59,973 nucleotides of DNA, from NCBI GenBank assembly GCA_046582635.1, contig JAYGEA010000128.1:1-59973 (forward strand), written 5' to 3'. This DNA is from Alphaproteobacteria bacterium. GTDB taxonomy: Bacteria; Pseudomonadota; Alphaproteobacteria; GCA-2731375. Position 1 is the stretch's first letter. Each line of letters begins with the position of its first letter. The position numbers and the translations under genes were made by a program. Shown here one piece after another: positions 1 through 19,017 of the stretch. A model generated the notes under the pieces. The model saw only the letters and a program-made list of their open reading frames with translations. It made no database searches and was not told the origin of the DNA.

Positions 1-226
1 TCTGCGACCCGCATTCGCCCTGGCAGCGCGGCGCTATCGAGAACACCAATGGCGTCATACGCAGGGACATGCCCAGTAAAACCGACATGGCTGATTACAC
101 CGAAGGGGACATCGACGACATCATGTGGGCCGTCAACTCAAAACCCCGAAAATGCCTCGGCTATCGAACGCCCGCCGAGGCTTTCCTCGAAATCCTTCGA
201 ATTGCACTTGAGATGTGAATCCAGCC
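1..226 (+). mobile_element. Right end of an IS30-family insertion sequence
   Basis: Transposase C-terminus whose stop codon lies within an IS30-like terminal sequence ATTGCACTTGAGATGTGAATCCAGCC; exact end uncertain because the left IR is outside the window. Confidence 0.7.
3..218 (+). CDS. IS30-family transposase, C-terminal fragment (5' truncated by window edge)
   Basis: Frame 3 (not in ORF track) reads CDPHSPWQRGAIENTNGVIRRDMP...AVNSKPRKCLGYRTPAEAF...ALEM*, matching the IS30-family C-terminal motifs CDPxSPWQRGxNENTNG and NxxPRKxLGYxTPAE. Confidence 0.9.
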   Translation, partial: CDPHSPWQRGAIENTNGVIRRDMPSKTDMADYTEGDIDDIMWAVNSKPRKCLGYRTPAEAFLEILRIALEM

Positions 227-263
227 CCTTCTCTTTTGGGCTGTGATGTGGCGTACTGGCAAG

Positions 264-3200
264 GTGAATAAAACCAATAATAACGCCTGGATCGGCCGCT
301 CCATTGCGCGGCTGGAGGACCCGGCCTTGTTGCGCGGCGCGGCCCGTTTCGCCGATGACCTGGCAACCCCCGCCAATGTCTGCCATGCCGCCTTTCTGCG
401 CTCCCCCATCGCCCATGGGGAGATCGAGGCCCTGGATACAGCCGCTGCCAGGGCCATGCCCGGTGTGGTCGCGATTATCACCGGTGCCGACATGGCGGCC
501 CATTCGGCGCCCTTCATCACCGGGGTCAAGGTGGCGGCGCCGCAATATGCCCTGGCCACGGACCGGGTTCGTTACGTGGGCGAGCCGGTGGCCATGGTGC
601 TGGCCCTTGATCGTTATCTGGCCGAGGATGCGTTGGAGGCGATCACCGTTGACTATTCCCCCCTGACGCCCGTATTGGATCCGATTGCGGCGCTGGAGGG
701 GTTGGTATTGCACCCTGATACCAATAGCAATGTGTTGCATGAGCGGCATTTCAGCTATGGCGACCCGGAAGGGGCGTTCGCGGACGCGGCCCATGTTGTC
801 GAAGGCACCTATCACTATCCGCGCAATTCCTGCACGCCCCTGGAATGCTATTGCGTCATCGCGGATTACAATGCCGGTGAAGACGCGTTCGAGGTCACGG
901 CGAATTTTCAGGGCCCCTACACCTTGCACACCATCATGGCCCGGTCCCTGAAGGTGCCCGGCAACCGCCTGCGCCTGAAGACGCCGCCCGCCTCGGGCGG
1001 CAGCTATGGGGTCAAGCAGGCGGTGTTCCCTTATGTGGTGGCCCTTGGCGTGGCCGCCAAAATTGCCGGGCGGCCGGTGAAATGGCTGGAAGATCGGTTT
1101 GAACATCTGACCGCCGCGACCTCCGCCACCAATCGGGTGACCACCCTGCGGGCCGCATTGGATAAAGCGGGCCGGGTGCTGGCTCTGGATTGGGACCAGT
1201 TGGAGGATTGCGGCGCCTACCTGCGCGCGCCGGAGCCGGCCACCCTCTACCGCATGCACGGCAACATGACCGGCGCCTATGCCATTGAAAACCTGGCCAT
1301 CCATAACCGCGTGGTGGTGACCAACAAGACACCAACGGGGCTGATGCGCGGCTTCGGCGGGCCGCAGATCTATTTCCCCCTCGAGCGGCTGTTGGACAAG
1401 GTGGCCGCCGAACTGGGCCTTGATCCCTTGGCGCTGCGCCGCCGCAACCTGGTGCCCGGCGACGCCATGCCCTACCGCACCGCGCCGGGCGCCCTGCTGG
1501 ATTCCGGTGATTACAGAAAGAGCCTGGACCGGGCCGCGGCCGACGGCGGCCTGGACGAGCTATTGGCCCGGCGCGAGGGCGCCCGGGCCGAGGGGCGGCT
1601 TTACGGTATCGGCTACAGCGTCGTCGTCGAACCCTCGATCTCCAACATGGGCTACATCACCACCTTGTTGAGCCCGGAGCAGCGGCAACGCGCGGGGCCA
1701 AAAAACGGCGCCCTGGCCACGGCGACGGTGGGCTTTGACCCCTCCGGCGCGATCAGCGTCGCCGTCTCGTCCGTGCCCCAGGGCCAGGGGCACCGCACGG
1801 TGCTGGCCCAGGTGGTGGCTGATGTTTTCGCCATTACGCCGAAAGACGTCGCGGTGATGACGGAACACGATACCGCCAAGGACCCCTGGTCCATCGCGTC
1901 GGGCAATTATTCGTCGCGCTTCGCCGGCGCCGTGGCGGGCGCCACGTACCAGGCGGCGTTGCGGTTGCGCGACCGGCTGACCCTGATCGCGGCGGCGGAC
2001 CTGAATGTTCCGCCCGACGAAGTGACTTATGAAGCGGGGCGCATTTTTGCCCGAAATAATCCCGACAACGCCCTGCCCCTGGGCCGGCTGGCGGCCAAGG
2101 CCCATTGGTCGCCCTTGTCCATTCCCGATGGCGCCGGCGCGGGCTTGCGGGAGACGGCGTTCTGGAACATGGCGGAACTGGCGGAGCCCGATGACGGCGA
2201 TCGCATCAATTCCTCCGGCGCCTATGGTTTTATTTTCGATTTTTGCGGCGTGGAAGTCGATCCCGATACCTTCGCCGTGCGGGTTGATCGTTATGTCACC
2301 ATGCATGACGCGGGCCGGCTGCTGAACCCCATGCTGGCGGACGGCCAAATCCGCGGTGGCTTTGCCCATGGTCTCGGCGCCGCACTGCTGGAGGAGCTTT
2401 CCTATGCCCCCGATGGCGGCTTTCAGGCCGGCACCCTGGCGGATTATCTGGCGCCCACGGTGATGGAAATACCCGAATTGACCATATTGCATGACCAAAC
2501 CCCGTCACCCTTTACGCCCCTGGGCGCCAAGGGTCTGGGCGAGGGCAATGCCATGTCGACACCGGTCTGCATTGCCAACGCTGTATCCAATGCCCTGGGC
2601 CGGGAGATTACAACGTTGCCCCTGACCCGCTCCAACCTGGCGGAATTGCTTTTGGAGGATGAACCGCCGGGCAAGGCGAAGGTGTGTCACGGTCATGCGT
2701 TGGAGGGCCGGGGCAGCACGGCGGTACCGGCATCACCGGAAGACGTCTGGGCCATTCTGTTGGATGATAACAGGTTGGCGGCCGTGATCCCGGGCTGCCA
2801 TGCTTTGGTGCGAACGGGGGAGGATGCTTATAGCGCCGATGTAACCTTGGGCGTCGGCCCCATCAAGGGCCGTTTCGCGGCCAAGGTGGCGTTGCTGGAT
2901 TTAGTCCCGCCGAAAAGCCTGCGCCTGGTTGGTTCGGCAACCGGCCCCTTGGGACGCGCGGAAGGGGACGGGCGGATCAGCTTGCGGGCCACGGCGGGGG
3001 GCACCGAAGTCGACCACACCTACACGGTGCGGATCTCGGGCAAGGTGGCGGCGGTGGGTGGACGGATGATGGACGGGGCGGCCCGCGCCTTGATCAACCA
3101 GTTTTTCAAGCGGCTGGTAAGCCAAACCGGAGCCCCGGAAAAGCTCCCGGCACCAAGTTTTTGGGAGCGTCTGCTGGCGCTGTTGGGGTTGGCGCGATGA
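264..3200 (+). CDS. hmfA: 2-furoyl-CoA dehydrogenase large (molybdopterin) subunit with C-terminal CoxG/SRPBCC domain
   Basis: Xanthine-dehydrogenase-family Mo subunit (GGSYGVKQ, RGFGGPQ, GQGH, GAKGLGE) plus ~150-aa CoxG-like tail; first gene of the order large-FAD-2Fe2S-CoA ligase-crotonase typical of hmfABCDE. Start uncertain (GTG 243 or 264). Confidence 0.85.
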   Translation: MNKTNNNAWIGRSIARLEDPALLRGAARFADDLATPANVCHAAFLRSPIAHGEIEALDTAAARAMPGVVAIITGADMAAHSAPFITGVKVAAPQYALATDRVRYVGEPVAMVLALDRYLAEDALEAITVDYSPLTPVLDPIAALEGLVLHPDTNSNVLHERHFSYGDPEGAFADAAHVVEGTYHYPRNSCTPLECYCVIADYNAGEDAFEVTANFQGPYTLHTIMARSLKVPGNRLRLKTPPASGGSYGVKQAVFPYVVALGVAAKIAGRPVKWLEDRFEHLTAATSATNRVTTLRAALDKAGRVLALDWDQLEDCGAYLRAPEPATLYRMHGNMTGAYAIENLAIHNRVVVTNKTPTGLMRGFGGPQIYFPLERLLDKVAAELGLDPLALRRRNLVPGDAMPYRTAPGALLDSGDYRKSLDRAAADGGLDELLARREGARAEGRLYGIGYSVVVEPSISNMGYITTLLSPEQRQRAGPKNGALATATVGFDPSGAISVAVSSVPQGQGHRTVLAQVVADVFAITPKDVAVMTEHDTAKDPWSIASGNYSSRFAGAVAGATYQAALRLRDRLTLIAAADLNVPPDEVTYEAGRIFARNNPDNALPLGRLAAKAHWSPLSIPDGAGAGLRETAFWNMAELAEPDDGDRINSSGAYGFIFDFCGVEVDPDTFAVRVDRYVTMHDAGRLLNPMLADGQIRGGFAHGLGAALLEELSYAPDGGFQAGTLADYLAPTVMEIPELTILHDQTPSPFTPLGAKGLGEGNAMSTPVCIANAVSNALGREITTLPLTRSNLAELLLEDEPPGKAKVCHGHALEGRGSTAVPASPEDVWAILLDDNRLAAVIPGCHALVRTGEDAYSADVTLGVGPIKGRFAAKVALLDLVPPKSLRLVGSATGPLGRAEGDGRISLRATAGGTEVDHTYTVRISGKVAAVGGRMMDGAARALINQFFKRLVSQTGAPEKLPAPSFWERLLALLGLAR

Positions 3201-4027
3201 AGCCGGCCGCGTTCGATTACGCCTGCCCGGACAACGTGGGCGAAGCGCTGGCCATCCTGGCGGAGCGCGGGGCCGGCGCCCGCATCTGCGCCGGGGGGCA
3301 ATCTCTTGGCGCCATGATGAACCTGCGCCTGATGGCCCCGGCAGTGCTGATCGATATCGCCGGTCTGGACGAGTTGAAATCCATCGCCATGACCGGGGGC
3401 GCCATTGAAGTTGGCGCCGCCGTCACCCAGGCCGAGCTGCTGGCCTGGCCCGATCTGGCGAAAACCCAGCCTTTGCTGGCGCGGATGTTGCCTATGGTCG
3501 GACATTACCAGACCCGACAGCGGGGCACGGTCTGCGGCTCCCTGGCCCATGGCGACCCCAGTTCGGAATTGCCCCTGGCGCTGGCCGTGCTGGAGGGCGA
3601 GGTCTTGCTGGCCAGCAGTCGCGGCCGTCGGGTCGTCGCGGCCAAGGATTTTCAGCTCGGCATGATGGCCACGGATATCGCCGACGATGAAATGGTGGTC
3701 GCGGCGCGCTTTCCCACGGCGCCGGTTAGCGCGGAATCCGCGTTCCAGGAAATCGCCCAACGGCATGGAGATTTCGCCATCGTGGCCGTCGCCGCCGTGG
3801 GCACTCAAAACGGCGTTCGCCTGGGCGTCGGCGGCGTGGCTGATTGCCCCGGTGTGATCGAGCTGAAATGGCCGGTGGATGATGCCGCCCTAAACGATCT
3901 ATTGAACGATTTCGCCTGGTCACTGGGCGGGGCCGACGATCAACATGCCACGGCGCGCTATCGCCGCGAACTGGTGCGCCGTATCGGCCGGCAGGTGGTT
4001 GACGAGGTGCGTGATGCGTTATCTTGA
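3197..4027 (+). CDS. hmfB: 2-furoyl-CoA dehydrogenase FAD-binding subunit
   Basis: MKPAAFDY start overlapping the hmfA stop (ATGA); AGGQSL, RGTVCGSLAHGDP and RHGDFA motifs of CoxM-type FAD subunits. Confidence 0.85.
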   Translation: MKPAAFDYACPDNVGEALAILAERGAGARICAGGQSLGAMMNLRLMAPAVLIDIAGLDELKSIAMTGGAIEVGAAVTQAELLAWPDLAKTQPLLARMLPMVGHYQTRQRGTVCGSLAHGDPSSELPLALAVLEGEVLLASSRGRRVVAAKDFQLGMMATDIADDEMVVAARFPTAPVSAESAFQEIAQRHGDFAIVAVAAVGTQNGVRLGVGGVADCPGVIELKWPVDDAALNDLLNDFAWSLGGADDQHATARYRRELVRRIGRQVVDEVRDALS

Positions 4028-4511
4028 AGCCGGCAAACGCCACATGGTGCGCTTTACCTTGAATGGCCAAATGGTCGAGGGAGAGGCAGAACCGCGTCTT
4101 TTGTTAAGCGACTTTCTGCGCCAGACCCTGGGCGCCCATGGCACCCATGTGGGTTGCGAACATGGCTCGTGCGGGGCCTGCACGATCCGGGTCGATGGCA
4201 AGGCGGTGCGGTCGTGCTTGCTGTATGCGGTACAGATGCAGGACCGGGCGGTGACCACTGTTGAGGGTCTGGCCACGCCGGATGGTTTGAATGCCCTGCA
4301 GGCGGCGCTGCAAAAACACCACGGCCTGCAATGCGGGTTTTGTACGCCGGGTATCCTGATGTCCCTTGAGCAACTGCTTGAAGAAGAACCCGGCGCCGAC
4401 GAGGCGCGCATCCGGGATGTGCTTTCGGGCCATATTTGCCGCTGCACCGGTTATCATGGCATCGTCCAAGCAGCCCTGGAGGTGTTTGGGGAAGTATTCG
4501 GGAACCGCTGA
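4014..4511 (+). CDS. hmfC: 2-furoyl-CoA dehydrogenase 2Fe-2S subunit
   Basis: GCEHGSCGAC...SC and QCGFCTPG...CRCTGY two-cluster motifs. Confidence 0.85.
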   Translation: MRYLEAGKRHMVRFTLNGQMVEGEAEPRLLLSDFLRQTLGAHGTHVGCEHGSCGACTIRVDGKAVRSCLLYAVQMQDRAVTTVEGLATPDGLNALQAALQKHHGLQCGFCTPGILMSLEQLLEEEPGADEARIRDVLSGHICRCTGYHGIVQAALEVFGEVFGNR

Positions 4512-14250: not shown

Positions 14251-14433
14251 TATCTCCCGCGCCAAGCGAAGATGCCATGGGCGACGTCCCGCCTAATATC
14301 GACGCAAAAAAAGGCCGGCCCAGATTACCTGGGCCAGCCTTGCAATGTCGTACGTCAAATTTGATTGGAGATAGCGGTAGATCTATTCCTCCTCTATCTC
14401 TTGCCCACCGATGAGCGCCGCCGAGGCGCCCGG
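14251..14433. repeat. ~180-bp direct repeat copy A (gene tail + terminator + next cassette start)
   Basis: Aligns by eye with 15123-15307 (shared blocks TCCCGCGCC, GCGAAGATGCCA, ACGTCCCGC, GCCGGCCCAG, GCCTTGCAATGTCGTA, AGCGGT, CCGATGAGCGCCGCCG, GCGCCCGG). Confidence 0.85.
14306..14341 (-). terminator. Rho-independent terminator
   Basis: Minus strand AAGGCTGGCCCAG-GTAAT-CTGGGCCGGCCTT followed by a T-run, downstream of the 14383 stop. Confidence 0.75.
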
Positions 14434-15150
14434 CAGGGCCGCGGCCCAGAGAATGTTGTTGAACTTAAGCATGCGGTTGACGGCGGGGTTGCTATTCACC
14501 GCCTTGCGGATCGCCGCCGCTATCTTCGGGGCGATGGTCTTGATGTAGTTCGGGTCGGCCAAATAGGCACGGATGGCTTCCGCCAAGAACTCGCGCGAAA
14601 TGTCTCCGCCCTTGTAGCAGGCACCTTGGGGCGTCGCGGGTTTGCCCCATGATGCCGCCCCGGTTCCATAGCGGCCGCGGTTGGCATTGTTGAGGGTGTT
14701 GTAAAGCGCCTTCAACTCTGTTTTCAGGCCCGTGTCGGAAATTTCCCCCGCCAACTGATCCACAACGTGGCCGATCTCATGGCCGTAGACGATGGGAAGT
14801 TGATCGGGGGTCAGCTTTTCCGAGAGGAAGACCCGCGTGGGGCGTTTCGTGGTTCGGTCGAATTCTGTCCGACCCAAGTCACCTCCGGTGGCGGATTGCG
14901 CGATCATCTGAGTGCTTCGGCCCGTTCCTTCCTTTGCGATGGCGTCAAATTCCTCTGGCGGGAGGGTCTCGTCCGCTCCGCCAGCCACTCTTCGGCCCAC
15001 AATTCGACCGCCGACTTTGAGGGGGTTTCCGTCGATGTCGTGGGTGAGGTTTCCTTGCTCATCGGCACGCGCTCCGGAAGGATAATCCTTGTCAAACGGG
15101 CGCGGTTCCGCCGTTGGAGGATTATATCCCGCGCCGCGCGAAGATGCCAC
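14383..15150 (-). CDS. Zincin-like metallopeptidase domain protein (putative toxin/phage polyvalent-type cassette)
   Basis: HEIGH (HExxH) plus downstream EFLAEAIRAY; bracketed by the direct repeats. Start uncertain (GTG 15150 corresponds to an ATG in repeat copy A; ORF track uses 15177). Confidence 0.65.
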   Translation of the reverse strand: MASSRGAGYNPPTAEPRPFDKDYPSGARADEQGNLTHDIDGNPLKVGGRIVGRRVAGGADETLPPEEFDAIAKEGTGRSTQMIAQSATGGDLGRTEFDRTTKRPTRVFLSEKLTPDQLPIVYGHEIGHVVDQLAGEISDTGLKTELKALYNTLNNANRGRYGTGAASWGKPATPQGACYKGGDISREFLAEAIRAYLADPNYIKTIAPKIAAAIRKAVNSNPAVNRMLKFNNILWAAALPGASAALIGGQEIEEE

Positions 15151-15307
15151 GGGCAACGTCCCGCTTTGTATTGACACAAAACAAAGCCGGCCCAGCTTAT
15201 CTGGGCCGGCCTTGCAATGTCGTATTTAAAATATGATCTGGTAGAGCGGTGGATTAATCCTCCTCCGACCTGGTTGCCCCGATGAGCGCCGCCGCCCCCG
15301 CGCCCGG
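15123..15307. repeat. ~180-bp direct repeat copy B
   Basis: See copy A; includes hairpin GCCGGCCCAG/CTGGGCCGGC (15186-15210). Confidence 0.85.
15178..15210 (-). terminator. Rho-independent terminator
   Basis: Perfect 10-bp stem GCCGGCCCAG/CTGGGCCGGC followed on minus strand by TTTGTTTTG. Confidence 0.65.
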
Positions 15308-15782
15308 TATTGGGCATAGCTGCCCGGAATGCCCAGGGACATGATCGCCCCGGCCAATGCCGTCGCGCCGGCGGTGACTTTGGATACGTCCGACTTATTG
15401 ATGCCATCCATCAGTTCCCCGGCGCCCTTCTTGAGGTCGGGAATATCCTGGGTGGGACTGAGCGATGCGACCATGTCCACCAACCCAAATATCCGGTCGC
15501 CCACATTTGGTCCCATTTTGTTCAGGAACTTGCGCGTTTCCCCCTCCGCCGCCATGAGCGGCTGCGTGGCGTTTTCATAGACCCATATTTGCGAGGGATG
15601 CCAGCCTTCGTACGTGGCGTCATTTTTTATAGCCTTGCCACTGGATTTGTTGGTATTGGACTTGCTGTTGCCATTACTTACATAGTCATCTCCAAAAGGG
15701 ACCTGAGGCTTTGTTTTCGTTGCTTCCCCATGAGCGGTAGCGTCGGATGATACACTTTGCCGTCGCCATAGATATCAATCAT
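15254..15782 (-). pseudogene. Frameshifted/deleted hypothetical gene (possible N-terminal carrier of the cassette)
   Basis: AAGGAGA RBS + ATG at 15782 (MIDIYGDGKVYHP), frameshift near 15730 into the frame ending ...AGAIMSLGIPGSYAQY, second shift into PGAGAAALIGATRSEED*, paralogous to the PGASAALIGGQEIEEE* tail of the peptidase ORF. Confidence 0.55.
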
Positions 15783-16088
15783 GGGGTCTCCTTTCGGGAG
15801 CCTGAAGGTTCAGAATATGTGAGGGTGCCAGGCGTGAACATTCACCGGGGTTCAGGCTGCCGAAACAGGCTGCAACGCCGACACAAATTTTCAGTCACGA
15901 TTTCAGGCACAAAAAAGGCGCCGGGCCAGGCCGCTCAGTGAGAGCATGCGGGGCAAACAGCGCCTGTTCATCTGTAATATTCGGATATCAAGCCCGTTTA
16001 TTCCAGTATGGCGATACTACACTATTTAAATTGAAATTGCAAGAAAAATTCTATTTACACGCATCGGGGACTGAACCAAATAGCGCAC

Positions 16089-16161
16089 AAAAAAGTGAGG
16101 CGTCAGGTGCATTGGACGCGGGGTCCTAGCAATGTATCCCGAAGGATACGCCTGACGCCTC
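16089..16161 (-). terminator. Terminal stem plus U-tract closing the candidate ncRNA
   Basis: Perfect 11-bp pairing of 16097-16107 with 16151-16161, followed on minus strand by AC-TTTTTT; large structured loop, so atypical. Confidence 0.5.
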
Positions 16162-17322
16162 GGAACCATGGGAACCGGAGTTCCCTGATCCTCGGAGTCC
16201 AACCACCTGCTGGTCACATCACTTCGGTACTTTGTCAAAAGAAGCTTTGTCCGAAGACATTGCTGTCTAAAAACGCCGCCCCGAAATGTGGTTCCCAAAC
16301 TTGCGTTCAAAAACCCGTGGCCAAGGGCCTGCTGCTCCAACGGTTCGGTGGTCATGGTGCCGCGCCCCGAAGGGTTCCGCGCCCTAATCGCCTTACCGTA
16401 TGGGCCGTTCCACGTATTGCCGCGGATCCGAAGACGCGCCGCAAACAGCTTTCCCGCCCAACCAATCCAGACACACCCACGGTTTAACCCGCTTGTCGCC
16501 TCGACCGGCTTGCCAACCTGGATAATCTGCGGGCCACCCCTAGAGGTCAACGCGCAAACCATTCCGACCAGCCGGATCGCTCCACCGAAAGGTTTCCGCC
16601 CGAAGGTTTCTCCCAGAAGGCTTCACAATCCCCGTTCCGTTGTACGCCATGGTTCCCCCCGAAGGCTTCACCTAGGCATCCATCGACCCGGTTGCCGAAT
16701 TTCCGTTCCAACCCGAAGGCCGGATCTTCCACCCGGCGGGTCAAGGTCACCCGACATCTCCGAAGAGCTGCACGCTTCCCTGATCCCGGCCTTGCCCTTT
16801 GTCATCCAGCCGATCCGAAGACCCGCCAAACATCAACCGACCTGGCCTTTGACCGCAGCACCCGTCATGCCCGAAGGCACGCCAGCCTCGCGATCCCGAC
16901 CGCCTGGTATCGTAAGATCCGCATCCGAAGATTTGCACCCAATGACACCCGCTTCCGGTTGGATTGTTTCACCGTTCCCGCATCACCCGGAAGCATGGCG
17001 ACAACCGCTCCTCAATCCGCCGGCCGAACCCGCCCGAAGGCCGTTTCCGCCAGCTCGGCCAACCTACCCGAGGATGTGCACCCGAAGATCCGCATCCAAA
17101 GTCACTTGGCCATTCGACCCTTCACCGAACGAAGGCACCCGGAGGCGTCATCGATAGGTTCCCGGTCCCGAAATGCCATCCACATCGGTTGCCCGTTGCG
17201 GTATCCAATGGCCTGTTCCAACCAAGGTTGGCGCAAACCAAATGGGTCTTGGTACCCCGCGGCGGCCCCGGCTTTTGAATGCCTCGCTTTTGAAGGCTTG
17301 GCATTCATCCTTCGTGACCGCT
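16089..17322 (-). ncRNA. Candidate large structured non-coding RNA (~1.2 kb) with tandem UUCG-capped hairpins
   Basis: 13 CCGAAG on + (=CUUCGG on -) at 16139, 16251, 16367, 16428, 16600, 16659, 16713, 16760, 16815, 16871, 16925, 17034, 17082, most flanked by complementary arms with G-U pairs valid only on minus; terminal stem + U6; no credible protein. Ends approximate. Confidence 0.7.
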
Positions 17323-17387
17323 GATTGGAATGGTGGATCGGAATGATGCGGCAAACAAGATGAATTTGTAAGGAAACGTCAATTTCC

Positions 17388-17436
17388 TGTGGATAACTGA
17401 AATATTATTACACAATCACCCCACAAGCTATCCACA
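17388..17436. promoter_or_regulatory. DnaA boxes
   Basis: TGTGGATAA (17388-17396, perfect reverse complement of TTATCCACA) and CTATCCACA (17428-17436, 1 mismatch) in an AT-rich intergenic region. Confidence 0.6.
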
Positions 17437-17697
17437 AGCCTCGGTTAACCAATTCTGAATTGCCAATCGATTCATTAACTTACGGGCAATGTTATGGCAA
17501 ATAAAAACCAGGTCCGGCGCGGCAAATCAAGGTGGGTTTTAGGTCGAAAAGCGGCTTCATCGACCCTGGGGCTGCTTCGAATCAGTTGAAAACACAATTC
17601 AATTCAAATTGCGCCAGAATCGGTCCCGATAATTTTCGTAAATGATGGTTCCGCCGGCTTTCTCCGACCTACGCTGGTCCTTGGCGGGCAATATATC

Positions 17698-17821
17698 CTA
17701 ATCAATGTCCAACCGTTTCCAATCCAGAATGGGCCTCTCCTGGCCCGCCTCGGGGACGTTGTCCAGCAGGTCACCTTCCAGATGGATCGTGGCAGTCCAC
17801 CTCGTCGTAAAATCTGCTCAT
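17698..17821 (-). pseudogene. Probable deleted-gene remnant
   Basis: MSRFYDEV start right after the Fe-ADH gene, joined out of frame to TIHLEGDLLDNVPEAGQERPILDWKRLDID* with host-like codon usage; family not recognised. Confidence 0.3.
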
Positions 17822-17847
17822 GACTGGTTCCGCTCGAAAGGGGCCTC

Positions 17848-19017
17848 CTAAAATGCGGCGCGCAGGATTTCCATGATCTGATCGGGGGAGCGGATCTCCC
17901 GCGGGTTGGAATAGGTCCAGGAATCCAGCATGCAGTTTTCCGCCAGTTGCAGCAGTTGATCCTCGGTAATGTCCACGTCGCGCAGGGTCCGGGGCATGCC
18001 CAGGCCGGAAATCAGCTTGTCCAGGGCATCGCCGGCGGAGCCGCCCGGTTGCCCCAGCGCGGCGGCGATATCCGCCTGGCGGTTGGAATTGATGGCGGCG
18101 TTATAGTCCATCACGTACGGCAGCATGATGCAGGAAGTATAGCCGTGGGGTACATTCGCCGTGCCGCCCAAAATATGGCCAATGGCATGGCTGGCGCCCA
18201 GCCGGGTACCGGTGACGATGCCGGTCATGGAAATCCAGGCGCCCATGAGGCATTGCAGGCGGGCCTCCAAATCCGATGGGTCGGCCTTGACCCGGGCCAG
18301 CCCCGCGCTCAACAGGCGCAGGGCCTGCAGGGCGGCGCCGTCGGTATAGGCGTTGGCATCCAGGGAGCAATAGGTCTCCACCGCATGGTCCACGGCGCGA
18401 ATGCCCGTGGACAGCCACAGCCATTCCGGCGTGTAAATGGTGGCGGCGGGGTCCAGGATCACCAAAATGGGAATGATGCCCGGATGCATATAGCTTTGTT
18501 TCAGCTTCTCCACCGTGTTGGTAATCCCGGCGCGGGCATTGAATTCACCCCCCGACAGGGTGGTCGGCACGACGATCTGGCGTACCGTGGGCGCGTCGTA
18601 TTCGGGGCAATGGTGGTCGCCGTTTTCATCCACCACGGTGCGGAACGGCTCCAGCCCGGCGGCTTCGGAAATATTGTGTTGCAGACAAATGGTCACCGCC
18701 TTGCCGCCGTCCGTGGCCGAGCCGCCGCCGAAACTGACCAGCAGATCACAACCAGCCTCCCGCGCGGCGTTGGCGCAATCCACCACCGCCTCCCGTGGCG
18801 AGTGCGAAGGCATATGGTCCCAGCGCCCGGCGTACCGGGAACCCAGCGCCGCCGCCATTGTCTCGACCGCATCCGTGTCCCGATTTAAGGTGCCGCTGAC
18901 CAGCAGATAGACCCGTTCCGCGCCCAGGCGCTCGGCCTCGCCAGCTACCGCGCCCGCCGCCTCCTGTCCGAAGATGACCCGTTCCATGCCCGTAAAGACG
19001 ACTTCACCGCTTTGCAT
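17848..19017 (-). CDS. Iron-containing alcohol dehydrogenase (maleylacetate reductase-like)
   Basis: GGGSATDGGK, PTTLSGGE, DHAVE, HAIGH...HG iron ligands. Confidence 0.9.
   Translation of the reverse strand: MQSGEVVFTGMERVIFGQEAAGAVAGEAERLGAERVYLLVSGTLNRDTDAVETMAAALGSRYAGRWDHMPSHSPREAVVDCANAAREAGCDLLVSFGGGSATDGGKAVTICLQHNISEAAGLEPFRTVVDENGDHHCPEYDAPTVRQIVVPTTLSGGEFNARAGITNTVEKLKQSYMHPGIIPILVILDPAATIYTPEWLWLSTGIRAVDHAVETYCSLDANAYTDGAALQALRLLSAGLARVKADPSDLEARLQCLMGAWISMTGIVTGTRLGASHAIGHILGGTANVPHGYTSCIMLPYVMDYNAAINSNRQADIAAALGQPGGSAGDALDKLISGLGMPRTLRDVDITEDQLLQLAENCMLDSWTYSNPREIRSPDQIMEILRAAF

What the first reader, a model, noticed from the sequence alone, without database searches (positions are those of the whole stretch)
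16089..17322. Candidate undescribed ~1.2-kb structured ncRNA: an array of UUCG-capped hairpins on the minus strand
Seen: 13 CCGAAG hexamers on + (CUUCGG on -) against a single CTTCGG on + in this interval. Seven consecutive copies (16600-16925) are spaced 47-59 nt apart, and the other gaps are about 1-3 times that unit (112, 116, 61, 172, 109, 48). On the minus strand most cap long imperfect stems, e.g. GAUCGCGAGGCUGGCGUGCC-UUCG-GGCAUGACGGGUGCUGCGGUC, UCAGGGAAGCGUGCAGCUC-UUCG-GAGAUGUCGGGUGACCUUGA and CGUAUCC-UUCG-GGAUAC. Several pairs are G-U on minus but would be A-C on plus, which fixes the strand. Hairpin arms differ in sequence, so this is not a simple tandem repeat. The region ends in an 11-bp stem plus U6, and the overlapping ORFs are Pro/Arg-rich with no recognisable domain. 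Established: C(UUCG)G is the hallmark extra-stable tetraloop of structured RNAs, and bacteria have large ncRNA classes such as OLE, GOLLD, ROOL and HEARO. I recognise no rRNA, RNase P, tmRNA or intron signature here. Inference: a large scaffold/sponge-type RNA presenting repeated helices, or a precursor processed into ~55-nt units.
Basis: partly seen in the sequence, partly recalled or inferred. Interest (0 to 1): 0.9.

Follow-up and report, generated by a model that had tools for sequence, protein, structure and literature searches.

The report
Abundant new hairpin-array RNA behind DnaA boxes
This stretch encodes a real, very abundant, highly folded non-coding RNA of about 1.2 kb from uncultured marine bacteria, and it belongs to a previously undescribed RNA family of Alphaproteobacteria that always sits behind binding sites for the replication initiator DnaA.

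Summary
Window 16089-17315 (minus strand) is a discrete transcript of about 1,227 nt. Contigs of four metatranscriptome runs cover only 16124-17314, at word depths of 30 to over 1,000, and cover none of the flanking genes. No reading frame is conserved. Rfam 15 gives no hit.

The locus is single-copy and present in 21 of 21 species genomes of one uncultured marine genus. RNA length there is 658-1,280 nt. Covariation supports three domains: the 5' domain, the core, and a 3' three-way junction that doubles as the terminator. G-U pairs fix the strand.

- The UUCG hairpin array is the variable, expandable part. In a sister lineage one ~99-nt module occurs once or four times.
- The 3' junction and the promoter layout recur in 12 of 150 other alphaproteobacterial families sampled, with RNAs of roughly 130-960 nt. 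The layout is a pair of DnaA-box-like 9-mers, then the -35 and -10 elements, then a CAC(G/A) start.

Function is unknown. My best guess is a DnaA-controlled, stable, trans-acting RNA whose conserved 3' junction is the working part. I found no published description.

The parts
17428..17436 (+). Distal DnaA-box-like 9-mer (CTATCCACA, 1 mismatch to TTATCCACA). It forms an inverted pair with the proximal box and lies about -113 to -121 from the RNA 5' end.
   Evidence: Conserved in the genus alignment of the promoter region. At least 2 boxes in 18 of 19 genus loci.
17388..17396 (-). Proximal DnaA box, a perfect TTATCCACA, about -73 to -81 from the RNA 5' end and followed by GAAAT.
   Evidence: The same box-GAAAT arrangement lies upstream of homologs in other families.
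17324..17354 (-). Putative promoter: -35 TTGCCG (17349-17354), 19-nt spacer, -10 TCCAAT (17324-17329), 7 nt, then the start in CACGAAGG. This is inferred by comparison with homologs and was not found by the consensus scan.
   Evidence: My reading. One search found no sigma-70 consensus here.
16089..17315 (-). The ncRNA, about 1,227 nt. The 5' end is at 17314/17315 and the 3' end is at the U-run 16089-16094.
   Evidence: RNA-run contigs cover only 16124-17314, with adapter letters directly after 17307 and 17314. Metagenome-collection contigs L082, L079 and L085 start at the homologous position. Conservation stops at 16090.
17090..17315 (-). Conserved 5' domain. It has a 5'-terminal hairpin, a 10-bp long-range helix with three consecutive G-U pairs, a GCAA-capped hairpin and several UUCG hairpins.
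   Evidence: Alignment A2 (26 sequences; it runs on to about 17042). 94.9% of cells paired. 27 of 56 pairs changed on both sides. 0 of 500 shuffles reach the observed values on four of five measures.
16530..17090 (-). Variable UUCG-hairpin array, which holds 9 of the 13 CUUCGG sites. The homologous interval is 24 to 561 nt in the other species.
   Evidence: The minimal 658-nt RNAs (L011, L070) lack it.
16290..16540 (-). Conserved core domain, a multi-branched fold.
   Evidence: Alignment A3 (26 sequences). 95.6% of cells paired. 24 of 60 pairs changed on both sides. 0 of 500 shuffles. Model R1 finds it in 20 of 21 genus genomes.
16329..16339 (-). Nearly invariant motif UGGAGCAGCAG; its 5' half is unpaired and its last four bases pair (helix 1) in the consensus fold.
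16089..16161 (-). 3' three-way junction and terminator. An 11-bp outer stem (16151-16161 with 16097-16107) encloses a UUCG hairpin and a 4-bp hairpin with loop CCCGC, followed by AC and U6. This is the only RNA part conserved across families.
   Evidence: Cross-family alignment A7: 97.9% paired, 13 of 24 pairs changed on both sides, 0 of 500 shuffles.

Best explanation
Window 16089-17315 (minus strand) is the gene of a stable, abundant, independently transcribed structured non-coding RNA.

**Shown.**
- It has its own conserved promoter region and ends at a conserved three-way-junction terminator.
- It folds into covariation-supported domains.
- It accumulates far above its neighbouring genes in marine metatranscriptomes.

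**Family.** It is the largest known form of a family that Rfam 15 does not hold, found in about 8% of the alphaproteobacterial families sampled. The defining features are:
- a cluster of DnaA-box-like sites, usually an inverted pair about 40 nt apart, 30-35 nt upstream of the -35;
- a start at CAC(G/A);
- a G-rich body of tetraloop-capped hairpins of very variable length, giving RNAs of about 130 to 1,280 nt;
- the 3' junction with a near-invariant outer stem GGCGUCAGG/CCUGACGCC.

**Inferred.**
- DnaA controls its transcription. The box position upstream of the -35 suggests activation.
- The conserved 3' junction is the effector part, a protein-binding or pairing site.
- The UUCG/GNRA hairpin body is an expandable, nuclease-resistant scaffold. 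It grows by tandem duplication of hairpin modules and in this genus has evolved extra conserved domains.
- The RNA acts in trans, since its neighbouring genes differ between families.
For: **Expression.**
- 22 of 24 listed RNA runs, from 20 studies, hold 82-92% of the sampled words. Some of these runs have only 7 million letters.
- Contigs of 4 runs from 4 studies cover only 16124-17314, at word depths of about 480, 600-790, 30 and 1,250-4,300. Depth is 0 over 15000-16071 and 17412-19000, which includes the Fe-ADH gene.
- Adapter letters abut 17307, 17314 and 16124.
- Three short contigs of different species-level variants begin at the same homologous position.

**Non-coding.**
- The longest frame of this RNA is broken in the 90%-identical relative.
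- Substitutions by codon phase are 31/25/33.
- Indels are 1, 1 and 28 nt.
- The five overlapping ORFs have no Pfam match.

**Conservation.**
- The locus is in 21 of 21 genus genomes at one place each.
- Conservation stops sharply at the terminator.

**Structure.**

| Alignment | Cells paired | Pairs changed on both sides | Cells with double change (shuffle mean ± sd) |
|---|---|---|---|
| A2, 5' domain | 94.9% | 27 of 56 | 122 (38 ± 5.6) |
| A3, core | 95.6% | 24 of 60 | 94 (29.5 ± 5.4) |
| A7, 3' junction | 97.9% | 13 of 24 | 47 (9.7 ± 3.2) |

For these three measures no shuffle of 500 reaches the observed value. Slid-partner controls give far fewer double-change cells (1-34).

**Strand.** G-U makes up 18.7% and 22.4% of paired cells, against 1.9% and 0.6% for A-C.

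**Family.**
- The junction model R2 hits 13 of 151 class-level genomes and 18 of 25 genomes of a second order.
- 20 of 23 outgroup loci have at least 2 DnaA-box-like sites within 120 nt upstream, against 1 of 920 shuffles. In the genus it is 18 of 19 loci.
- All 8 further loci checked have at least 1 box upstream.

**Module duplication.** One genus holds 1 copy of a ~99-nt unit in one species and 4 copies in another.

**Trans action.** Neighbouring genes are unrelated between families.
Against: **Limits of the expression data.**
- Only contigs were laid, not raw reads. Strand, exact ends and level are therefore not measured directly.
- My reading of adapter orientation rests on recalled adapter sequences and an assumed library type.
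- 3' contig ends scatter between 16097 and 16154.

**Promoter and DnaA.**
- DnaA binding and regulation are inferred from sequence only.
- The consensus promoter scan found nothing at the proposed promoter. Its -10 is weak and the spacer is 19 nt.

**Function.**
- No protein partner or RNA target is identified.
- The hairpin arms share no sequence motif beyond C(UUCG)G and a G-rich 5' arm. That argues against a simple multi-site sponge and leaves the role of the array open.

**Family-level caveats.**
- The genus-specific 5' and core domains are not found in other families. Homology across families rests on the promoter layout, the start and the roughly 80-nt junction.
- Alignment A7 was fitted to the model, which favours its structure.
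- The genomes compared are related, so counts across them are not independent.
Confidence: 0.85

Rival explanations
1. Multivalent protein sponge. The many hairpins are repeated binding sites that titrate an RNA-binding protein, as CsrB/RsmZ titrate CsrA. The copy number of sites would be tuned by duplication.
For: - Hairpin number varies from 0-1 to about 19 among relatives.
- Arrays grow by tandem duplication.
- The RNA is highly abundant.
- A module of the type GAAGCC-tetraloop-GGYGG recurs in several families.
Against: - Arm sequences are not conserved. Over 301 hairpins only the C(UUCG)G cap and G-richness are shared.
- The candidate module occurs only 0-2 times per RNA in this genus.
- The loops are UUCG or GCAA, which are structural caps rather than recognition loops (established knowledge).
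- The shortest family members have a single hairpin.
- The 658-nt form of the genus lacks the middle array altogether.
Confidence: 0.2
2. The functional unit is the DNA locus. On this view it is a DnaA-box cluster outside oriC that titrates or remodels DnaA, like datA/DARS or the Bacillus DnaA-box clusters. Strong transcription next to it would serve the DNA element, and the RNA would be secondary.
For: - The DnaA-box cluster is the most widely conserved feature of the locus.
- The locus is not at the canonical origin, so it would be an extra-origin cluster. dnaA and hemE lie elsewhere in 10 of 10 genomes checked.
- GC skew keeps its sign across the window.
Against: - The RNA itself is under selection for structure. 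Compensatory changes occur in three domains and in the junction across families.
- It accumulates as a discrete stable species.
- There are only 2-4 boxes per locus.
Confidence: 0.1
3. RNA-only architecture or ribozyme. The large conserved fold in this genus would assemble into a homo-oligomer, as ROOL, GOLLD and OLE do, or would catalyse a reaction.
For: - Size of 0.66-1.28 kb.
- Multi-domain covarying fold with invariant unpaired motifs, UUCG and GNRA caps and multiway junctions.
- High abundance.
- A near-palindromic, largely invariant CYGCGG segment in the 5' domain (my reading).
Against: - No similarity to those families in Rfam.
- Family members of about 130 nt keep only the junction, so the ancestral function needs no large fold.
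- The scan for inter-domain covariation gave only trivial G/U-rich matches.
Confidence: 0.1
4. Precursor that is cut into small hairpin RNAs of about 55 nt.
For: - Regular 47-59-nt spacing of seven hairpins.
- Word depth differs between contig pieces in one run, X11, from 150 to 4,300.
Against: - A single contig of 1,147 nt (X1) and pieces of 709 and 808 nt span many units.
- Metagenome-collection contigs of 1,071-1,241 nt equal the full length.
- The units differ in sequence, and the array is absent from the minimal form.
- Contig depth cannot measure processing.
Confidence: 0.05

Closest known systems
OLE, GOLLD and ROOL large ornate bacterial ncRNAs (Rfam; cryo-EM paper PMC12286853, of which I saw only the search listing and the start of the abstract)
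   Same: Large size (0.6-1.3 kb). Complex covariation-supported fold. Unknown biochemical function. OLE is likewise exceptionally highly expressed (abstract start of PMC3413148 in the search listing).
   Different: - No sequence or structure match.
- Different taxa (marine Alphaproteobacteria).
- Not associated with phages: 0 of 14 viral-contig pattern hits are real.
- Length varies ten-fold within the family through expandable hairpin arrays.
- The promoter carries DnaA boxes.
CsrB/RsmZ-type sponge RNAs (recalled knowledge)
   Same: Variable number of hairpins along one abundant RNA that ends in a terminator. Hairpin number evolves quickly.
   Different: Those RNAs present GGA motifs in their loops. 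Here the loops are UUCG or GCAA and the arms share no motif.
CcnA of Caulobacter crescentus (PMC8959179; I read passages found with the find mode)
   Same: An alphaproteobacterial ncRNA gene that lies next to DnaA boxes and is tied to the cell-cycle machinery.
   Different: - CcnA is 182 nt, lies inside the replication origin and has a CtrA-box promoter (passages).
- This RNA is not at the origin.
- This RNA is up to 1.28 kb and has a different architecture.
DnaA-box clusters outside oriC (datA, DARS, Bacillus DBCs) and DnaA-regulated promoters (recalled knowledge)
   Same: A cluster of 2-4 consensus DnaA boxes away from the origin, next to a promoter.
   Different: I know of none that drives a large structured ncRNA. 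Two literature searches found no such case.

Membership tests
Any Rfam 15 family (including OLE, GOLLD, ROOL, HEARO, raiA, IMES, cuckoo, group II intron, RNase P, tmRNA, 6S, rRNA) | Score at or above the family's gathering threshold against its covariance model | tested here: not met
   - 0 matches in the whole window.
- Only H19_2 at E=4.6 in 15700-17700.
- No consistent match in 17 homologous loci.
- No match in 4 outgroup loci.
Protein-coding gene | Reading frame conserved among homologs, codon-phase bias of substitutions, indels in multiples of 3 | tested here: not met
   frames are not conserved, phase counts are 31/25/33, and indels are 1, 1 and 28 nt; no Pfam match.
CRISPR array or simple tandem repeat | Near-identical direct repeats at a fixed period | tested here: not met
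   only short, imperfect repeats centred on the CCGAAG motif.
REP/BIME-type dispersed extragenic palindromes | Many copies scattered over the genome | tested here: not met
   One locus in the own genome and one place per genome in the genus.
CsrB/RsmZ-type sponge | Repeated GGA-containing loops | tested here: not met
   Loops are UUCG. There is no conserved arm motif over 301 hairpins.
CsrB/RsmZ-type sponge | A CsrA protein encoded in the genome | not tested
   I did not search for CsrA.
Chromosomal origin (oriC) transcript, CcnA-like | Location in the origin, next to hemE or dnaA, with a GC-skew switch | tested here: not met
   GC skew is positive on both sides. dnaA and hemE lie on other contigs, or more than 1 Mb away, in 10 of 10 genomes checked.
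Proposed new family: DnaA-box-associated tetraloop-hairpin RNA | 3' three-way-junction terminator with outer stem GGCGUCAGG/CCUGACGCC enclosing two hairpins | tested here: met
   The window scores 104 bits against R2.
Proposed new family: DnaA-box-associated tetraloop-hairpin RNA | At least 2 DnaA-box-like 9-mers clustered upstream of the promoter | tested here: met
   Window 17388-17396 and 17428-17436. Family-wide counts.
Proposed new family: DnaA-box-associated tetraloop-hairpin RNA | DnaA actually binds the boxes and regulates the RNA | not testable with these tools
   Needs ChIP, EMSA or DnaA depletion.

The most novel reading that the evidence does not exclude
Many Alphaproteobacteria would carry a DnaA-controlled non-coding RNA that couples replication initiation to another cellular process through its invariant 3' junction. 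Its body can inflate from about 130 nt to 1.3 kb by duplicating tetraloop hairpins. In one uncultured ocean genus that body has become a multi-domain RNA that ranks among the most abundant transcripts of the cell. This would be a new class of cell-cycle-linked RNA and a natural example of modular growth of a large RNA.
Probability: 0.35. Interest if true: 0.92.

Novelty: categorically new. Interest (0 to 1): 0.88.

Why it matters
**A new large bacterial RNA.** Few large structured bacterial RNAs are known, and each has opened new biology. This one is supported by expression, by covariation and by wide phylogenetic spread. It is missing from Rfam 15 and from the literature I could search.

**A testable link to DnaA.** The invariable association with DnaA boxes gives a concrete hypothesis linking an abundant RNA to the replication initiator.

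**A view of how large RNAs evolve.** The family shows RNAs growing by tandem duplication of stable hairpins around a small conserved core.

**A practical point.** Marine metatranscriptomes hold this RNA at high depth, so it may distort expression analyses of these uncultured bacteria. It could also serve as a marker for them.

Tried and rejected
**Hypotheses tested and rejected**
- **Origin of replication.** Considered because of the DnaA boxes and AT-rich spacer. Rejected because GC skew does not switch and dnaA and hemE lie elsewhere.
- **3' UTR of the upstream Fe-ADH gene.** Rejected because the gene has no RNA-contig cover, the gap 17504-17846 is not conserved, and the RNA has its own conserved promoter region.
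- **Leader of a downstream gene.** Rejected because of the terminator and the non-syntenic downstream DNA.

**Searches that found nothing**
- **Syntenic analog in sister genera.** Nothing UUCG-rich lies downstream of the Fe-ADH orthologs.
- **Core-domain model R1.** It finds nothing outside the genus in its family, which equals its order: 0 of 12 genomes. In 18 outgroup loci with filters off it gives only weak local hits.
- **Inter-domain covariation scan.** Only trivial G/U-rich runs.
- **Repeated binding-site module.** Weak.
- **Viral contigs.** 14 exact pattern hits, none with the stem or the boxes.
- **Conserved neighbour gene across families.** None.

**Chance results**
- Triple-CUUCGG pattern search in 301 class genomes: most hits are chance or coding repeats, such as G294, G064 and G321.
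- The sigma-70 and terminator consensus scan missed both the promoter and the long terminator.

**Literature.** Seven searches found no description of this RNA. The CrfA sponge paper PMC12559287 (outline and passages) is unrelated. Supplementary files were not consulted and may hold sRNA lists that include family members.

- Read laying used contigs only. Parts without cover beyond the RNA are reported as seen and are not proof of silence.
Full report
**1. The observation**

The sites fall in all three reading phases, so they are not a protein repeat.

In the whole 4.4-Mb assembly the motif occurs 0.334 times per kb per strand. No other 1,250-nt stretch has more than 5 copies on one strand.

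TRF finds only a short stretch of 14-nt period and the repeat finder finds only short repeats centred on the motif, so this is not a tandem repeat.

The minus strand folds better than its shuffles (−545.9 against −511.9 ± 11.8 kcal/mol, z = −2.9). The plus strand does not (z = −0.6).

**2. It is not coding and not a known RNA**

- Five overlapping ORFs have no Pfam match at E ≤ 1.
- The longest frame (322 codons, stop to stop) is broken in the 90%-identical relative L002, whose longest frame is 150 codons.
- Substitutions between the two fall 31/25/33 over the three phases.
- Their indels are 1, 1 and 28 nt.
- Rfam 15 gives nothing at gathering thresholds in the window.
- At E ≤ 10 in 15700-17700 it gives only a meaningless H19_2 match.
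- It gives no consistent match in 17 homologous loci.

**3. It is a discrete, abundant transcript**

*Sequencing runs.* 22 of the 24 RNA runs listed, from 20 studies, hold 82-92% of the sampled words of 16090-17330. Three of these runs have only 7 million letters.

*Contigs laid on 15000-19000.* Contigs of four runs from four studies cover 16124-17314 and nothing else. Word depths are about 480, 600-790, 30 and 1,250-4,300. Depth is zero over the 1.07 kb downstream and the 1.6 kb upstream, which includes the Fe-ADH gene. DNA contamination would cover the flanks as well.

*Ends.*
- Loose ends directly after 17307 and 17314 and directly before 16124 are, from memory, Illumina adapter letters. 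That would make them molecule ends.
- Short contigs of the metagenome collection match the element. L082 (1,218 nt) equals window 17314-16097 at 99.5% identity.
- L079, L082 and L085 are three different species-level variants. All begin at the same homologous position, window 17314/17315.
- 3' contig ends scatter: 16097, 16097, 16101, 16124-16126 and 16154. This is expected for the 3' strand of a strong stem.

*Limit.* Contigs cannot give the strand.

**4. Conservation**

- The locus is single-copy in the own genome.
- It is present in 21 of 21 species genomes of the genus, at one place each.
- It always lies downstream of the same Fe-ADH gene.
- Conservation stops sharply at 16090 in 17 of 19 relatives; L002 carries on downstream and L006 is cut by its contig end.
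- An exact 26-nt pattern of the 3' end occurs in 18 records of the species-genome collection. All are titled as uncultured marine Alphaproteobacteria or Rhodospirillaceae MAGs. 17 of them are the same loci as the genus genomes.
- The pattern also occurs in 21 metagenome contigs.
- 24 distinct full-length RNAs measure 658-1,280 nt.
- Every homolog keeps the strand bias: 7-19 CUUCGG in sense against 0-1 in antisense.

**5. Structure**

Three blocks are conserved: 17315-17090, 16540-16290 and 16200-16089. Between them lie stretches that vary in length. The middle block is 24-561 nt.

| Alignment | Sequences | Cells paired | Pairs changed on both sides | Cells with double change (shuffle mean ± sd) | Slid controls |
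|---|---|---|---|---|---|
| A2, 5' domain | 26 | 94.9% | 27 of 56 | 122 (38 ± 5.6) | 19-34 |
| A3, core | 26 | 95.6% | 24 of 60 | 94 (29.5 ± 5.4) | 14-29 |

For these measures no shuffle of 500 reached the observed value. The one exception among the five measures is 'further pair types' for A2, which 94 of 500 shuffles reached.

- G-U pairs make up 18.7% and 22.4% of paired cells, against 1.9% and 0.6% for A-C. The same pairs would therefore be 78% and 74% paired on the plus strand. This fixes the minus strand.
- A nearly invariant UGGAGCAGCAG, only partly paired in the consensus fold, lies at 16329-16339.
- The 3' end is a three-way junction. An 11-bp outer stem encloses a UUCG hairpin with G-C/A-U covariation (12 against 7 sequences) and an invariant 4-bp hairpin with loop CCCGC. 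A U-run follows.
- Just upstream, a helix GAAYC/GRUUC closes a pocket that holds one to about five inserted hairpins, depending on the species.
- 45% of 456 UUCG tetramers have at least 4 flanking pairs, against 4.2% for all tetramers. 139 of 494 perfect tetraloop hairpins with at least 5 bp are UUCG.

**6. The array is the expandable part**

Others have about 140 nt there.
- In another family, two species of one genus differ by one against four near-identical tandem copies of a ~99-nt three-hairpin unit. Arrays therefore grow by tandem duplication.
- In the window the units have diverged, and only short repeats remain around the motif.
- Over 301 hairpins the arms share nothing but the C(UUCG)G cap and a G-rich 5' arm.

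**7. Promoter region with DnaA boxes**

- Conservation runs on for about 190 nt upstream of the 5' end, to about 17504.
- This stretch holds a perfect TTATCCACA (17388-17396, minus strand).
- About 31 nt further upstream, across an AT-rich spacer, it holds an inverted one-mismatch copy (17428-17436).
- Both are conserved through the genus. 18 of 19 loci have at least 2 boxes there, and none has a box inside the RNA.
- By comparison with homologs in other families I read a -35 TTGCCG, a weak -10 TCCAAT and a start in CACGAAGG. That start coincides with the observed 5' end. This is inference, and the consensus scan found nothing there.
- The locus is not the chromosomal origin. GC skew is positive on both sides. 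dnaA and hemE lie on other contigs in 5 of 5 genus genomes checked.

**8. A wider family**

*How it was found.* A search for three CUUCGG at hairpin spacing in 301 class-level genomes gave mostly chance or coding repeats. It also turned up two non-coding arrays in other families, G178 and G195. G178 ends in the same three-way junction. Both arrays lie behind consensus DnaA boxes.

*Exact pattern.* A junction pattern is present in 3 of 401 genomes. One of them, G272, has two RNAs of only about 130-150 nt.

*Covariance model R2* (built on the junction):
- It finds further members in G104 and G173, plus a second copy in G178.
- It hits 18 of 25 genomes of G104's order, including 13 of 13 in one genus.
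- It hits 13 of 151 class-level genomes sampled one per genus, that is 12 of the 150 other genomes sampled.

*Junction covariation.* On 29 distinct junctions, 97.9% of cells pair. 13 of 24 pairs show changes on both sides, and no shuffle of 500 reaches this. This alignment was fitted to the model.

*DnaA boxes in the family.*
- 20 of 23 outgroup loci carry at least 2 DnaA-box-like 9-mers within 120 nt upstream, against 1 of 920 shuffles.
- All 8 further loci carry at least one.
- The distance from the boxes to the junction tracks RNA length, from 133 to about 1,480 nt.

*Other properties.*
- The RNAs are G-rich and lack long sense frames. Some lineages cap their hairpins with GCAA instead of UUCG.
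- None matches Rfam.
- In G104, a single 3.1-Mb contig, the RNA is over 1 Mb from dnaA and hemE. In four other genomes those genes lie on other contigs.
- Neighbouring genes differ between families.
- The 5' and core domains of the window's genus are not found elsewhere.
- All 14 viral-contig pattern hits are chance.

**9. Reading**

*Shown.*
- A real, abundant, independently transcribed, structured ncRNA.
- A modular architecture with a variable hairpin array.
- Membership in a family that Rfam 15 does not hold, defined by the DnaA-box cluster, the start and the 3' junction.

*Inferred.*
- Control by DnaA.
- Action in trans.
- The junction as effector.
- The array as a stable, expandable scaffold.

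*Rivals.* A multivalent sponge, a DNA-level DnaA element, an RNA-only assembly or ribozyme, and a processed precursor. They are weighed in their own sections.

**10. Literature and limits**

- Seven searches found no description of this RNA.
- CcnA is the nearest concept but differs in size, place and promoter (passages).

Noticed in passing
L131 (G441:C7) against L133 (G440:C346): Two species of one genus differ by four against one near-identical tandem copies of a ~99-nt three-hairpin unit in their homolog of this RNA. This is a recent module duplication.
   Followed up: partly
L119 (G195:C44:1-520, minus strand): An array of at least 12 CUUCGG hairpins with a two-hairpin unit of about 65 nt lies behind two perfect TTATCCACA boxes. 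The contig end cuts it off. The junction model finds no 3' end elsewhere in that genome.
   Followed up: partly
L130 (G178:C2:122132-122211) and G081 (three R2 hits): Some genomes hold 2-3 junction-bearing loci. The second G178 copy has different inner hairpins, so paralogous subfamilies may exist.
   Followed up: no
L170 (G159:C15): A family member of about 800 nt has no CUUCGG at all, and many of its hairpins are capped by GCAA. The tetraloop type is lineage-specific.
   Followed up: no
window 17480-17504 (minus strand): A conserved ATTTTCCATAAC block and a GANTC site (GAATC or GATTC) lie upstream of the distal DnaA box in most genus loci. Their meaning is unknown. From memory, GANTC is the CcrM methylation site.
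   Followed up: no
window 14383-15177 and 15226-15555 (minus strand): The two ORFs downstream of the RNA (264 and 109 aa) have no Pfam match, and this flank is not syntenic in the other species.
   Followed up: no
L019:461-537: A long palindromic hairpin just downstream of that species' RNA gives spurious miRNA-family matches in Rfam.
   Followed up: no
G000:C108:460-1189 (+): This is the second densest CUUCGG cluster of the genome, with 5 copies. I did not inspect it.
   Followed up: no
G124 (class sample): 138 reverse-strand matches of the triple-CUUCGG pattern stand against 137 matches of the control pattern. This points to a highly repeated, palindrome-like element in that genome.
   Followed up: no
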